From NCBI RefSeq assembly GCF_963506605.1, contig NC_083283.1:67332001-67396000 (forward strand): a stretch of 64,000 nt of DNA. The letters run 5' to 3'. The stretch's first letter is position 1. Each line of letters starts with the position of its first letter. Below, one piece after another: positions 49,201 through 55,200 of this stretch. The position numbers were made by a program. This DNA is from Zootoca vivipara (lineage: Eukaryota).

Positions 49201-52200
49201 AAGTGAGTCAAAGCCTAAAGCAAAAGAACAAGGCAAAATCGAAAAGATGAAAAAGATGAAAGAGCAAATGCCCAGTCCGACAGTCACAGGAAAGAAGGCC
49301 AAGCCCAGAAGAAGAAGGTAATAATAGCACCATGCCTACAGCTGCAAGAAAGAAATGGAAAGAGCCAAGCTGAAAGCTAAACCCTTGAAGCTAATGATTA
49401 GCAAAGGGGAAGCCTCAAGACACAGAATCAAGCACAGCAAGTCAGAGAGGACAGCCTGAAGATGACATCGCAAAGCTATTTCAGAAAGTCCAGAGGTTTC
49501 AACAGCCTGTAAATCACAGTTTGTGTCATCTCTATACCTAAATCTATATTTGTATCCGTTTCTATCACTCCGGCATGCCGCACGAATCAAATGGAAAGGT
49601 GATGAAGTATTTTGTACTTTAGGAAGGAGAGGGAAAACAGGAGTAGCCTGATGTGCTCTCAACAGTCCTCCCAAGTATTTGCAAGAAACCGGAAGCCGGA
49701 TCATAGAAGTGATTACATCTGTCCGAGGTTAGTTTGGTTAAATGCCTACATCAGAGGAAGAGATGGTACATAGGCTCAGCTTTTTTTTTGCTCCTCCTCT
49801 ACTCCTTAAACTATTTCCATGCAAGCTGCTCATTATTTATACACATCGAGCTGTGTAACTTTTAAGAACTGTTCCATGAGTTTGCTTGTTTCCTCTTTCC
49901 TTCCCATCCCCTTTGTCTTTTATATTGTTCCTTTTAGATTGTAGGCCTGAAGGGCAGAGAATAAATTTCATGGAACAGAATTATTGACTTGTTGTTTTTT
50001 CAGGAATAATTCAGTTAGTATCTACGGATACCTACCACAGGAACTGCAGTACACTAGGGATGCCATATCACATCTGATTTCTTTATTTTCATTTAAAGGG
50101 GTAGGGCCAAGAGGGAGGGGTGGGGGTTGAGGTGGGAGGGGCCAGGGCCCCCACTAATAGCCCATGCCCAAGGACCTCGAGAGACCTGGAGCTAGCCCTG
50201 TTCACCTGGCATATACATATAACACTTCATTTGAATAGCCCACAGTAGTATGAAAGAACAGCCCTTAAAGTTTTTGACCAGGTTGTTCAGCACCTTGGAG
50301 ACCTGTTGGGTATATCCTAACATTAAGTATACAATGTTCTCCAACTTGCCAGAATTAATCTAATTCCCCATTCAAAGCTGGCTTTGCATGACTGCAAATG
50401 TGCATCACTCATAAAAGAGAGAGAGAGAGAGAGAGAGAAACAAATTCACAAAAACGGAACACAAAGCTACAGTAAAAGCAGATTGGGAATGCTAGACAAC
50501 ACACACGAGTGGGAATTCTAGACAACACACACTAGACAACACACATTCTCCACCCCCAGAGATGGCGAGAGGATGTCTTCACCTGATGCACAGAACCTGA
50601 TTTGTTTCCCCACACCTCCAACACCCTATAGCTCCTATTCAATGAAGCTGTCACCTGTGCATATGCAACAAACATCTTCAATGTGCACACCTCAGCTTGA
50701 CTTCGGCTGATTTTTACAACTTAGATGGAAGCTGGTTTGAGGGAAAATACACTGAACAGGAGTATTTCTCAAGAAACTACAGGATACATAAGGATTATGG
50801 CTAATGTAATATGTGCTCGGCTTCAAATGCCTGGTGCAGGAATGCACTGGAGCAATGTTTAAAGGTAAAGGGACCCCTGACCATTAGGTCCAGTCGTGAC
50901 CGACTCTGGGGTTGTGACGCTTATCTCGCTTTATTGGCCAAGGGAGCTGGCGTACAGCTTCCAGGTCATGTGGCCAGCATGACTAAGCCACTTTTGGCGA
51001 ACCAGAGCAGTGCACGGAAATGCTGTTTACCTTCCCGCCAGAGCGGTACTTATTTATCTACTTGCACTTTGCCGTGCTTTCGAACTGCTAGGTTGGCAGG
51101 AGCAGGGACCAAGCAATGGGAGCTCACCCCGTTGTGGGGATTTGAACCGCCAACCTTCTGATCAGCAAGCCCTAGGCTCTGTGGTTTAGACCACAGCCCC
51201 ACCCGCGTCCCTGGAGCAATGTGTACCCAGTCCTAAATTATTTCTGGGAAATCTCCGCATAAAATCATGATACAGAGTACAGTGTAGGGCAGAACCAAGT
51301 CATGGGAACAGGAAAAACCCCAATAAATTAGTACCTGCACCTCAGGCCAGTCAGCCATCTTGTTGGCTTCTCTGACTTGTCTCCCATACTTCTCAATGAC
51401 TCCTGGTCACAGTTCATCCTCATACTAGGTCTAGTTCAGGCCTTCAGAAATTTAAACTCATCATACCAAAAGCATGCCAGGTGCTTATTGGCTTCCTGCA
51501 CTTCACAGTCCCAAGCATGCAGCAAAAACAGGGGCTTTATAGCAAGCCTCTGGTGGGCTGCCATAAATAGCTAGTGGATTGCCTTCAGAATGTAGGTCAT
51601 AAATTGTGCACACCTAATAGGTTCTGCTGCCCACTATATCTTGCTAATACTGGGGTCTGTTTCTCATTTCTCCTTGCATTTCTGCAATATCCAGTCCTTC
51701 AAGCTTCATTCTCCTTACACAATTTCTGAATAGAAGCATTACATGCACCAAAAAGTGCTACTAAAGAGCCAAATTCTTATCTGAATCTGGTAGGAAAGAA
51801 GCGGCCCATTGACTATGCTCTAGTTCCCTCACTTCTGAGGCATAAATGCTGGTTGTATCGCTTAGATGTTCAGCTGGTATATACTTGAGATAAGAAGTAT
51901 AAGCTCTTTAGTAGCACTTTTTGGTGCATGTGATGCTTCTATGTCAAAATCTGAATACTACCGTAACCTTGCCTTGAATTGACTTACAAATAACCTAACC
52001 AAACAAGCGACTCCCAATACCACTCATGTTTCTATCATAGCTGTCAAGTTTCCCCTTTTCTCGCAAGGAAGCCTATTCAGCATAAGAGAATTTCCCTTAA
52101 AAAAAAATTGAGAACTTGACAGCTATGGTTTCTATTGGAATTTATATGGAAGTCACTAAAAAATTAATTAGATGATTTACAGGAATCAAGACTCTTAGGA

Positions 52201-55200
52201 GTTGTCAATCCCAATTGAAGGTTTTTTTTTGTTTTTGTTTTTTTGCAGTAGGACATCTTGTGGACTGCACAGAGCAAGTGGAGAAATGAGGTAGTGAGTA
52301 GGGAAAACAGAAGCAATTAAGTCCTCTCCCCACTTATATGGCTATAACCATACCATATCCTCAGAGACAATAGCAACCAACTTATACATGGTACAGTGGT
52401 ACCTCGGTTTATGAACACAATTGGTTCTGTAGGTCTGTTCATAAACTGAAGCGTTCATAAACTGAAGCGACCTTTCCCATTGAAAGTAATGGAAAGTGGA
52501 TTAATACGTTCCAGATGGGTCCGCGGAGTACTCAACCTGAAGCATACTTAACCCGAAGCATGGGTGTAATTGGTTCTGGAAGTCTGTTCATAAACTGAAG
52601 CGTTCATAAACTGAAGCAAACTTTCCCATTGAAAGTAATGGAAAGTGAATTAATTCGTTCCATCCTGCGGCGTTTGTAAACCGAAAATCCGTAAACCGAG
52701 GTGTTCATAAACCGAGGTTCCACTGTATCTGAATATTACAAGGGTTCAAGGCAAGCTGTTTTAAAGTTCCTGCCTATAAATAGGCCAGGTAAGCAGCATT
52801 ATATAATCTTACTGCCTCAGATGGGCATAAACTCCCCCAAGTGACTAAGATCAGCTTATACTTCTTATCTCAAGTATATACCAGCTGAATATCTAAGTGA
52901 TACAACCAGTATTTATGCCTCAGAAGTGAGGGATGATCTTCCGGCTGAATGCATATAGAGACAGGCTTCCCAGTGCCCCCTGATTTTCTGGAATAGGATG
53001 AATAATGACAAAGGTGACCCATTCTAGGTTTAGCTGGCCAGCTGGTGCATGTATAAGGTATGAATATTATCCATTTTGCTATCTGGGTACTTTAAGCGGC
53101 TCATAAGAAACATGGGCCTCATTTTGTTTGCAGGGAACCCTTATCGTTTTAGAATCAACCCCTAAACTGAGTGTTGCTGGGGCCCAAAAAGCAGAGGTAC
53201 TTCCCAGAAACTATGCTATTAAGCACTAAAGTTCTATATTTTTATTGCTTTGTAAAGCTAATGTATTTATTATGGTAACTTGTGCCTTTCCAAATGCCCC
53301 TTAGTCCTTTGAATAGGTTTTTCTGTCTAGGAGGAATGACCAGGGAATTTCCACAACACAAGAAGAAAAAGAATTTTAAAAAGGCGACAGTTGTGTGTAG
53401 TGAGCAAACTTAAAATATGTAGCAACTCTTTGGCACAAGTGATCCTGGAGGGGTAGATTTGTTCCCGAAGTTTGTCTCAGAAGTTTTCCCCCCGCATATG
53501 TTAAGAGTTGCCTTAGGTCAATTTTAACTGAAGTATGCTGAATTTGCTCACTTTTTGAAAGGGAATTCATGCAAAAAGTTCAACTGCACTTTAGGCAGTG
53601 TTTTTGCTATACCTGAACTAATTTTTTTTTTTTTGCCAAGAAGCACTTCTTCTGAGGTGAATATCTCCAACCAAATATAACAGGTGAAACCTCCAGGGTA
53701 CACATCACTGGGTTTAATATGAGAAGAAGACAGGAACCATTCCCTCCCCCCAATTAAACAGCACAAAGCCCTCTTATTATTCTCAGTCACCTCTCACATG
53801 GAAATCATTTGACATAAATCTCAAATGATTTCCCCCCGTATCATAGCAAAGCTCTTAAATTTTAAAAATTAGGAACTGCTTTTACTTGCATTTTTATGAA
53901 TCTAATCTGTAAATCCAACTGTATTCTGTTGTGTTTTAACATTATACGACAAGATTAGACATAAGGACACAAGGAGAGCCCTGCTGGATCAGGCAAAAGG
54001 CCCACTTAGTCCAGCATCCTGTTCTCACAGTGGCCAACAAAACACCTGTGGGGATACGGCAAGCATCCTGCCCACTTCTGATTCCAAGTAAATGGTAGTC
54101 AAAATCTTACTGCCTCTGGCAAGTGGAGGTAGAACAATAGCCACCACGACTAGTCTCCATGAATTTGTCTAACCTTCTCTTAAGCCCATCCAATTTGGTA
54201 ACCATCACTACAACTTGGGGGAGCAAATGGTAAAGTTTAATTATTGTCTCCATCCTAAATCTTCCAACATTCCTCTTCACCGCATGGGACCAGGTTTCAG
54301 CGCTACGAGAGAGGCGGAAAAATTGATAATCTTACATACTTCTACCCTGTCTCTCACCGTTTTTTTCCTTAAAGGCCCACAATGCTGCAGCCTTTCCCCA
54401 CAGGCGAGTTGCTCCAACCCTTTGATCATTTTGGCTGTACGTCTTTGAACATTTTCCAGCTCTACAATATCCTTTTTTGAGATGAGGCTATCCGAGCTGT
54501 ACACAGCGTTCCACATGCACAGATTTGTATGACAGCATTGTGATATGGGGCAGTTTGATTTTCAATCCATTTCTTAGCTTGATACTTAGCATGGAATTCA
54601 CCTTTTTTCATAGCTGCCACATACTGGGTAGACAGCTTTATCTAGCTATCCACTATGACCCCCAAGGTCTCATTCCTAGCCCACCACTGCAAGTTCAAAC
54701 CCAAATGCTTTTGGGATATGCACATTACCCTGTGGTGTTTGGGCCTCTCTGAACTGCAGTCATGTGTCCCTGCTTACTTCTACCTCTCTCCCCGTTTGAA
54801 TAATCACACACTTTTCCCACACAAAAGGTGGTAAACATATACCATCAGTCCTGGAAGTGGTCCAAGCTAAACCCCTAGCACAGTTATTATATGGGGCTCA
54901 GATTTGGACAGGCACTCACCTTGGATCTACGGAAGGCAAATTTTCTCCGTACCACCCTGTGTCCCAAATGCATCATTGCGCCTAGAGGCTAATCTTTATC
55001 CTTGGTAGAATTACGGATCTGGCGTAGGACACTTAACTATTGGCTTCGCCTAAACTCAAATCCCCCCCCCCCCGGTCTAATATCCCTGGTGCTATAAGAT
55101 TGTCACATGTCACAAGAACGCCTGGACTAAAATCGTCTATCAAAAACTTCACTCTTGTAGTTTATCACCACAACAGCTACTCACTTTGGGTTTTAGTAAA

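What the first reader, a model, noticed from the sequence alone, without database searches (positions are those of the whole stretch)
51730..52933. 118-bp patchwork built from two local inverted templates, with all mismatches G-U compatible
Seen: 51825-51905 is the reverse complement of 52853-52933 (78/81) and 51903-51942 is the reverse complement of 51730-51769 (39/40). The parts join through a 3-nt microhomology (GCT). Neither partner resembles a TE, and two MITEs now lie between the long arms. At all four mismatches the central segment has G where perfect complementarity predicts A, and only one is at a CpG. Known: multi-template inverted insertions with junction microhomology are signatures of fork template switching (FoSTeS/MMBIR) or polymerase-theta end-joining. 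Inference: in a plus-strand transcript both duplexes (40 and 81 bp) stay fully paired via G-U wobble and could form together. This may be chance with n=4, selection on an RNA structure, or an A-to-I-edited RNA template.
Basis: partly seen in the sequence, partly recalled or inferred. Interest (0 to 1): 0.65.

Follow-up and report, generated by a model that had tools for sequence, protein, structure and literature searches.

The report
Two-step template-switch insertion scar
A 118-base stretch is a reverse-complement copy of two nearby pieces of the same DNA strand, most likely a scar of DNA copying that jumped templates twice, and nothing shows that it acts as an RNA.

Summary
51825-51905 is the reverse complement of 52853-52933 (78/81). 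51903-51942 is the reverse complement of 51730-51769 (39/40). They share GCT, and all four mismatches are G in the central piece against T in the partner.

Best reading: one replication or repair event left the template at 51824, copied 81 nt backwards off the plus strand, jumped to a second plus-strand template, copied 40 nt, and returned at 51943.

New support: the second jump landed on the second-best annealing site of 3062 nearby positions, and the return on a top-0.7% site.

The RNA ideas are not supported:
- The two helices cross (a pseudoknot), so a nested fold keeps only the 81-bp one.
- Rfam finds nothing.
- There is no poly(A), target duplication or splice signal for an RNA-templated copy.

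Four G:T mismatches have roughly a 1% chance under neutral change. They are also what misinsertion of G opposite T during copying would leave.

No orthologue, read or transcript data could be reached, so which piece is derived remains inferred. This is a known kind of event, of modest interest.

The parts
51730..51769 (+). alpha: second template (40 nt), copied in reverse complement into 51903-51942
   Evidence: 39/40 complementary. The single mismatch is T51740 against G51932.
51770..51824 (+). f: 55-nt spacer, taken as ancestral sequence up to the departure point 51824. Its start holds the landing patch for the second jump, and its end resembles the end of alpha'.
   Evidence: TTCTTATCTGAA against TTCTTATCTCAA at the start of beta. 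Anchored null: 56 of 10000. The f end ATGCTCTAGT against the alpha' end ATGCTTCTAT: 112 of 10000.
51825..51905 (+). beta': first copied piece (81 nt), reverse complement of 52853-52933
   Evidence: 78/81. G at 51848, 51860 and 51868 against T in the partner.
51903..51942 (+). alpha': second copied piece (40 nt), reverse complement of 51730-51769. It overlaps beta' by GCT.
   Evidence: 39/40.
51943..52852 (+). g: 910 nt between the inferred return point and the first template. It contains both MITEs and a T-rich tract (52220-52245).
   Evidence: No similarity to the arms and no other copy in the window apart from the MITEs.
52036..52127 (.). MITE 1 (92 bp) with an 8-bp target duplication GTTTCTAT at 52028-52035 and 52128-52135
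   Evidence: 15-nt perfect terminal inverted repeat. Duplication read. Second copy at 14799-14891, 84%.
52394..52725 (.). MITE 2 (332 bp) with TA duplications and a CAGTGGTACCTCGG... terminus
   Evidence: Arms including the TA: 26/27. Partial relatives at 17559-17635, 32384-32458, 46324-46373 and 6858-7105. The same terminal motif is listed as 'Tigger-like' for an insect MITE in a table of PMC4678618.
52853..52933 (+). beta: first template (81 nt)
   Evidence: 78/81 complementary to 51825-51905.

Best explanation
The 118 nt at 51825-51942 are an insertion made in a single replication or repair event with two consecutive template switches, of the FoSTeS / MMBIR / serial-slippage type.

Inferred steps:
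1. A nascent plus-sense strand stopped at 51824.
2. It re-primed in the opposite direction on the plus strand at 52933 and copied 81 nt leftwards to 52853.
3. Its new 3' end (...AGATAAGAAGTATAAGCT) then annealed to the plus strand at the end of alpha and the start of f. That site pairs AGC, then a 4/6-nt bulge, then TTCTTATCT. It could lie on the lagging-strand template or on the nascent strand itself (snap-back).
4. It copied 40 nt leftwards to 51730.
5. It returned to the original template and continued at 51943.

Because copy and templates lie on the same strand, any G-opposite-T misinsertion during copying is preserved as a G:T position in the inverted repeat. Later transitions can give the same picture.

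Shown: the geometry, the mismatches and the junction homeologies. Inferred: that the central piece is the derived one, the direction of synthesis, and the enzymes. No function is implied; this is a mutational scar.
For: - Both central arms abut with a 3-nt overlap and have sharp outer ends. One event with consecutive switches explains this. Independent events do not.
- Every inserted base is accounted for by a template within about 1.1 kb on the same strand, with no unexplained filler.
- Second jump: the nascent end aligns to the landing site with an anchored score of 9. This was reached by 2 of 5000 random window pairs. Leaving out the GCT, the f start against the beta start was reached by 56 of 10000. 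The real site ranks 2nd of 3062 candidate positions in 50700-53950.
- Return: the alpha' end resembles the sequence at the departure point. This was reached by 35 of 5000 and 112 of 10000, and ranks 15th with 7 ties of 3093.
- No flanking direct duplication and no poly(A) at 51824/51943, so it is not a transposon or retrocopy insertion.
- Literature, passages read. Template switching creates inverted repeats and hairpins in one step (PMC5453318; PMC8794818). MMBIR proceeds by multiple switches at microhomologies or mismatch-containing microhomeologies and is accompanied by hypermutation (PMC13015775).
Against: - No orthologue, population or read data could be reached, so the polarity (central piece derived) is untested.
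- The first junction (51824 to 52933) shows no microhomology at all: score 0, rank 2093 of 3093.
- I made about ten junction comparisons. After correction for that number, the return-point signal is only suggestive.
- The first template lay about 910 nt ahead (about 476 nt if the MITEs came later). That requires uncoupled unwinding or strand invasion.
- An 8-mer, TCTGAATA, sits at 51725 and 51950 on either side of the alpha...alpha' unit and is not explained by this model.
- A weak likeness of the left flank of beta to the end of alpha is not needed by the model. It was reached by 596 of 10000 without the AGC and 56 of 10000 with it.
Confidence: 0.55

Rival explanations
1. Alpha and beta were once contiguous, as ...AAAGAGC|TTATAC.... 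The whole of 51770-52852 (1083 bp) is then an insertion at that point, and it happens to carry an inverted copy of the intact target site. The GCT/AGC overlap is simply continuity of the old sequence, and the copy had one template rather than two.
For: The central 118 nt equal the reverse complement of alpha followed directly by beta. The f start resembles the beta start, and the end of g weakly resembles the alpha end. That is what a homeology-guided insertion between alpha and beta would leave at both of its junctions.
Against: It needs four junctions and about 530 bp of filler of unknown origin, for which no source exists in the window. It does not explain the likeness of the alpha' end to the f end. 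No known mechanism readily places an inverted copy of a target site inside an insertion at that same site.
Confidence: 0.15
2. The arms belong to a transposon family. 51730-51942 would be a small element with 40-bp terminal inverted repeats, and 52853-52933 a fragment of another copy in the opposite orientation.
For: The unit has long terminal inverted repeats beginning TAG. The 8 nt outside them match 5/8 (TTTCTGAA against TGTCAAAA, read). TCTGAATA occurs at 51725 and 51950. The window is rich in MITEs and palindromic elements.
Against: No other copy of any arm exists in 64 kb, though that sample has little power. No clean target duplication abuts the repeats. A truncated second copy would have to start exactly at the boundary between terminal repeat and interior, and its flanks show no trace of f' or of a full alpha. 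The likeness of alpha' to the palindromic element at 42-198 is not significant (216 of 3000 shuffles).
Confidence: 0.12
3. Two independent events, either separate template switches or duplications followed by gene conversion, made the two inverted repeats. Their abutment is coincidence.
For: Both repeats have similar divergence (3/81 and 1/40), which is also compatible with separate events of similar age.
Against: Two central arms meeting within 3 nt in a 1.2-kb region has a chance of well under 1% by my arithmetic. The homeology at the joint points to a direct jump.
Confidence: 0.05
4. Assembly artefact: a chimeric or palindromic read introduced the inverted patch.
For: Small inverted duplications can arise from library or assembly errors (general knowledge). 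No read data were available here.
Against: The copies differ at 4 of 121 positions, whereas an artefact copied from the same reads would normally be identical. The only gap is far away, at 38176-38308.
Confidence: 0.05
5. RNA readings: the G:T pattern reflects selection for a plus-strand RNA structure, or the patch was copied from an A-to-I-edited RNA.
For: All four mismatches are wobble-compatible on the plus strand. The plus strand of the short hairpin folds slightly better than the minus strand, at -103.4 against -96.9 kcal/mol. The 5' neighbours of the four sites (T, C, T, T) do not contradict the neighbour preference of the editing enzymes; that preference is recalled, not taken from a call.
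Against: - The two helices cross and share 3 nt. The nested fold keeps only one.
- No Rfam match at gathering score in the window. In 51500-53200 the 5 hits at E up to 1 score 15-22 bits against gathering scores of 40-113.
- There is no two-sided change, so there is no covariation signal.
- Both strands fold about equally far from shuffles (z = -12.0 and -11.8).
- Editing needs a double strand that did not exist before the copy.
- No poly(A), no duplication and no splice signals.
- Window-wide skews (C>G, A>T on the plus strand) hint, weakly, that any sense strand is the minus one. The rule linking skew to transcription is recalled.
Confidence: 0.03

Closest known systems
FoSTeS / MMBIR / serial replication slippage (multi-step template switching)
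   Same: Inserted pieces templated from nearby sequence, inverted orientation, consecutive switches, joints at microhomology or mismatch-containing microhomeology, and possible accompanying point errors (PMC13015775, passages read; PMC5453318, passages read).
   Different: The scale is small (118 nt within about 1.1 kb) compared with the kilobase-to-megabase rearrangements for which these models were proposed. One of the three junctions has no microhomology. The event is a fixed or assembled state in an unidentified vertebrate-like genome, not an observed de novo change.
Short template-switch mutations, four-point model (Loytynoja and Goldman 2017)
   Same: Local switch-and-return copying in reverse complement that creates perfect hairpin-forming inverted repeats in one step (PMC5453318; PMC8794818).
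   Different: That model describes one contiguous copied fragment, and its authors state that they do not model multiple successive rounds (passage). Here two non-contiguous templates are joined, so a single four-point event fits only if alpha and beta were contiguous.
Synthesis-dependent MMEJ / polymerase-theta snap-back templated insertions
   Same: The second step (3' end folding back on upstream sequence of the same strand, primed by a few terminal base pairs plus a mismatched anchor) matches snap-back synthesis. Sources: titles and abstracts of PMC5728401, PMC2943611 and PMC11292364 in the listings; passages of PMC13015775.
   Different: Reported templated inverted insertions at breaks are short. 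The abstract of PMC11724301 in the listing gives about 5-34 bp in yeast. Here the pieces are 81 and 40 nt, and the first template is hundreds of bases away.
Polymerase-eta-type WA-to-WG errors
   Same: Three of the four mismatches are TA-to-TG in the copy. That is the change left by dGTP misinsertion opposite T, which is described as characteristic of Pol eta. Pol eta also extends D-loops (PMC11507097, passages).
   Different: 15 of the 32 A positions in the predicted copy are TA, so 3 of 3 has a chance of about 0.10. No enzyme can be assigned from four sites.

Membership tests
Multi-step template-switch insertion (FoSTeS/MMBIR type) | Inserted sequence fully templated from nearby sequence, in two or more pieces | tested here: met
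   81 nt and 40 nt match the plus strand at 52853-52933 and 51730-51769 in reverse complement (78/81 and 39/40), with no untemplated bases between them.
Multi-step template-switch insertion (FoSTeS/MMBIR type) | Microhomology or homeology at the switch junctions | tested here: inconclusive
   Met at the second jump (GCT plus an 11/12 patch; rank 2 of 3062). Suggestive at the return (rank 15 with 7 ties of 3093). Absent at the first jump (rank 2093 of 3093).
Multi-step template-switch insertion (FoSTeS/MMBIR type) | The patch is derived relative to an ancestral empty site | not testable with these tools
   No eukaryotic genome collection, reads or relatives were available.
Single four-point template-switch mutation | One contiguous fragment copied in reverse complement | tested here: not met
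   In the present sequence the two templates lie 1083 nt apart. The feature holds only under the rival in which alpha and beta were once adjacent.
MITE / terminal-inverted-repeat transposon | Terminal inverted repeats directly flanked by a target-site duplication | tested here: not met
   The 8 nt flanking 51731-51941 match 5/8. The TCTGAATA pair (51725, 51950) is not flush with the repeats.
MITE / terminal-inverted-repeat transposon | Multiple dispersed copies | tested here: inconclusive
   No other copy in the 64-kb window. A genome-wide count was not possible.
Structured RNA / microRNA precursor | Match to a curated family, or pairing conserved through compensatory changes | tested here: not met
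   No Rfam hit at gathering score in the window. In 51500-53200 the 5 hits at E up to 1 all fall far below gathering. All four differences are single-sided. Covariation across species was not testable.
Retrocopy / RNA-templated insertion | Poly(A) tail, target-site duplication, or splice-like joining of the two templates | tested here: not met
   None is present at 51824/51943. There is no GT...AG on either strand at 51769/52853 (sequence read).

The most novel reading that the evidence does not exclude
At least the three non-CpG G:T mismatches were not acquired later. They would be copying errors made during the template-switch synthesis itself: dGTP inserted opposite template T, three times in a TA context, by a low-fidelity polymerase. 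Because the transient template is abandoned, mismatch repair never sees these errors. The inverted repeat would then be a fossil record of the fidelity (about 3 errors per 100 nt) and error spectrum of germline template-switch synthesis. The plus-strand 'G-U compatibility' would be a by-product of copy and template lying on one strand.
Probability: 0.3. Interest if true: 0.5.

Novelty: new member of a known kind. Interest (0 to 1): 0.3.

Why it matters
The case is a clean, small natural example of two consecutive template switches, with the guiding homeology still legible. That makes it useful for teaching and for tools that currently model only single switch-and-return events.

If the mismatches were born with the copy, scars of this kind could be mined genome-wide to read the error spectrum of the polymerase that carries out germline template switching.

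It also carries a caution. Wobble-compatible mismatches in young inverted repeats can arise from the copying mechanism or by chance, and they should not be read as RNA selection without covariation evidence.

Tried and rejected
- **Other copies in the window.** I searched for other copies of the arms, f or g by blastn with word sizes 9, 7 and 11. Only the MITEs have relatives.
- **Extension of the repeats into their flanks.** No significant similarity: 397 of 2000, 1886 of 2000 and 1287 of 2000 shuffles did as well.
- **Mirror model (minus-sense nascent strand).** Departure was reached by 390 of 10000 and the return by 5921 of 10000. This is weaker than the plus-sense model.
- **Staggered-break inversion and fold-back duplication models.** The segment order or contiguity they predict does not match. 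This is reasoning.
- **Alpha' as a derivative of the palindromic element at 42-198.** Not significant: 216 of 3000 shuffles and 206 of 3000 random 40-mers did as well.
- **TA context of the errors as a polymerase signature.** Uninformative, because 15 of 32 A positions are TA.
- **Gene context.**
  - 10 of the 77 stop-to-stop frames of 90 aa or more gave no Pfam hit above cut-off. The single sub-threshold hit scored 16.2 bits against a cut-off of 27.
  - The 32 frames of 55 aa or more in 49500-55500 were listed but not scanned.
  - The transcribed strand therefore stays unknown.
- **CpG profile.** Only 35001-36000 passed my own flag (GC above 0.5, o/e above 0.6), and no such interval lies near the feature.
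- **tRNA scan.** 0 genes.
- **Host.** The atlas search on the frame at 34636-35256 gave only unnamed eukaryotic clusters, most commonly Chordata. I see no sign that the window is human, and I did not try to name the species.
- **Not used or closed.** The prokaryote-only genome collection and the phage, plasmid and E. coli collections were not used, as they are irrelevant to this window. Supplementary files of the papers were not consulted.
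Full report
**What is there**

- 51825-51905 with 52853-52933: 81 nt, 947 nt apart.
- 51730-51769 with 51903-51942: 40 nt, 133 nt apart.

A base-by-base check gives 78/81 and 39/40, and the two central arms overlap by GCT at 51903-51905. The four mismatches are G in the central piece (51848, 51860, 51868, 51932) against plus-strand T in the partner (52910, 52898, 52890, 51740). 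Only 51860 lies in a CpG, and it is the only CpG in the 118 nt.

Similarity ends abruptly at all four outer ends. blastn against the whole window gives E = 9e-33 for the long pair and finds no other copy of any arm.

I use these names:
- alpha = 51730-51769
- f = 51770-51824
- beta' = 51825-51905
- alpha' = 51903-51942
- g = 51943-52852
- beta = 52853-52933

**Surroundings**

The window looks like a CpG-depleted vertebrate-type genome. CpG observed/expected is mostly 0.1-0.45.

- It carries a young 350-450-bp interspersed repeat in 8 copies. One pair is 98% identical and most of the others about 90%.
- A frame at 34636-35256 has as its nearest atlas clusters unnamed eukaryotic ones, most commonly Chordata.
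- There is one gap, at 38176-38308.
- I see no sign that the window is human, and I did not try to name the species.

Two MITE-like elements lie in g:
- 52036-52127 has an 8-bp duplication GTTTCTAT and a second copy at 14799-14891 (84%).
- 52394-52725 has TA duplications. Its terminus is listed as 'Tigger-like' for an insect MITE in a table of PMC4678618.

Their relatives in the window differ from them by 16-23%, while the arms differ by 3.3%. This is inference.

**Geometry**

The central 118 nt equal the reverse complement of alpha followed directly by beta. Two histories explain that.
- A nascent strand copied beta, then alpha, in one event. The patch is then derived and had two templates.
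- Alpha and beta were once adjacent, and everything between them (1083 bp) is an insertion that carries an inverted copy of the intact site.

The first history needs three junctions and no filler. The second needs four junctions and about 530 bp of filler, for which the window offers no source. Independent origin of the two repeats does not explain why the central arms meet within 3 nt.

**Junctions**

I modelled a plus-sense nascent strand and asked whether its 3' end, at each switch, resembles the place where it landed. Alignments were anchored at the 3' end, with random pairs from the window as the null.

- **Second jump (end of beta' onto the end of alpha and start of f).**
  - The terminal GCT pairs with AGC. 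After a 4/6-nt bulge, AGATAAGAA pairs with TTCTTATCT. Overall this is an 11/12 patch plus 3 terminal pairs.
  - The score of 9 was reached by 2 of 5000 random pairs.
  - Without the GCT, the f start against the beta start was reached by 56 of 10000.
  - Among 3062 candidate landing positions in 50700-53950, the real one ranks second.
- **Return (end of alpha', ATGCTTCTAT, against the departure point, ATGCTCTAGT).**
  - Reached by 35 of 5000 and 112 of 10000.
  - Rank 15, with 7 ties, of 3093.
- **First jump.** No similarity at all: score 0, rank 2093 of 3093.
- **Mirror model (minus-sense nascent strand).** Weaker: 390 of 10000 and 5921 of 10000.

I made about ten such comparisons. The second-jump signal survives correction for that number, and the return signal is only suggestive.

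The left flank of beta also weakly resembles the end of alpha (596 of 10000 without the AGC, 56 of 10000 with it). This fits the rival history slightly better, and I cannot dismiss it.

**The four G:T mismatches**

From the 8 repeat copies, transitions are 150 of 212 substitutions overall and 79 of 139 outside CpG. By strand symmetry, half of all transitions give a plus-strand wobble. A mismatch is therefore wobble-compatible on the plus strand with probability of about 0.28-0.35.
- Four of four then has a probability of about 0.006-0.016.
- It is twice that if either strand would have been noticed.

In five other inverted repeats of the window, the 17 mismatches comprise 4 plus-strand wobbles, 6 minus-strand wobbles and 7 transversions. 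The pattern is unusual but not compelling for a feature noticed after the fact.

There are two ordinary sources.
- The CpG site is best read as CpG decay in beta after the event.
- The other three are TA-to-TG in the copy. That is the change left by dGTP misinsertion opposite T. A review describes it as characteristic of Pol eta, which also extends D-loops (PMC11507097, passages read). Replication-based rearrangement is reported to be accompanied by hypermutation (PMC13015775, passages read).

Copy and template lie on the same strand, and the transient template is abandoned. Such errors would therefore be kept and would necessarily appear as G:T positions on that strand. However, 15 of 32 A positions are TA, so the context adds little. 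I rate 'born with the copy' at about 0.3.

**RNA readings**

- The pairing order alpha < beta' < alpha' < beta is a crossing arrangement. The two helices share 3 nt and leave no loop between them.
- Forming 40 and 81 bp together would require the chain to be threaded several times through a closed loop. This follows from general knowledge of pseudoknot topology.
- The nested fold of 51720-52945 keeps only the 81-bp helix.
- For the short hairpin alone, the plus strand gives -103.4 and the minus strand -96.9 kcal/mol. Both lie about 12 sd from shuffles, as any young inverted repeat would.
- Rfam has no match at gathering score in the window. In 51500-53200 it has only five hits, scoring 15-22 bits against gathering scores of 40-113.
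- No position shows a two-sided change.
- An edited-RNA template would need a pre-existing double strand. It would also need a means of joining alpha to beta, but there is no GT...AG on either strand. And it would need a way in, but there is no poly(A) and no duplication.
- The transcribed strand could not be determined. 10 of the 77 long open frames gave no Pfam family above cut-off.
- The window-wide skews (GC skew -0.021, AT skew +0.028) hint only weakly, by a recalled rule, at the minus strand.

**Comparison with what is known**

The event works like FoSTeS / MMBIR / serial slippage, and its second step works like snap-back synthesis. It is not a single four-point template-switch mutation. 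The authors of that model state that it does not cover successive rounds of switching (PMC5453318).

Template switching as a one-step source of hairpin-forming repeats is in print (PMC8794818). This is therefore a new instance of a known kind.

**What stays open**

- Polarity, age, copy number in the genome, assembly support and transcription could not be tested.
- CTGAAT is enriched: six copies in the focal 1.3 kb against a window mean of 0.68. Three of the window's four plus-strand TCTGAATA copies lie here, two of them on either side of the alpha...alpha' unit. This is unexplained.

Noticed in passing
window 51725-52950: CTGAAT occurs 6 times on the plus strand in the focal 1.3 kb, the maximum of any such interval (window mean 0.68). 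TCTGAATA occurs at 51725, 51950 and 52728, which is 3 of its 4 plus-strand copies in 64 kb. Several copies lie 9-12 nt beyond segment boundaries. Unexplained.
   Followed up: partly
window 42-198: A 157-bp near-perfect palindrome (90% self-complementary over 160 columns), probably a foldback or MITE-type element.
   Followed up: partly
window 21502-21820: An element whose two strands carry mirrored open frames. It has 39-nt inverted arms at 21596-21634 / 21739-21777 (95%, 105 nt apart) in a locally CpG-rich kilobase (o/e 0.67). Both arm mismatches are also plus-strand wobbles.
   Followed up: partly
window 57488-57555: A 68-nt hairpin-forming palindrome (91%) followed by a repeated ACTTCCGGTGCCGC motif. 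It lies in the most GC-rich part of the window, under long open frames on both strands.
   Followed up: no
window 26007-26361 and 62612-62965: Two copies of a 350-bp interspersed repeat are 98% identical. Eight copies of the family lie in the window, one of them (50860-51204) 500 bp upstream of the feature. ARAGORN sees no tRNA-like part.
   Followed up: partly
window 52419-52513 and 52568-52662: The second MITE contains an internal 95-nt direct repeat (94%) built from shorter TTCATAAACTGAAGC units.
   Followed up: no
window 34636-35256 (-), 54277-54561 (-), 55265-55540 (+): Open frames that look, from memory, like C-terminal relics of retrotransposon ORFs. The first has no Pfam match and only unnamed eukaryotic clusters in the atlas; the other two were not scanned.
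   Followed up: partly
window 52220-52245: A T-rich tract ending in GCAG inside g. It could be the A-tail of a minus-strand retroposon fragment or a chance splice-acceptor look-alike.
   Followed up: no
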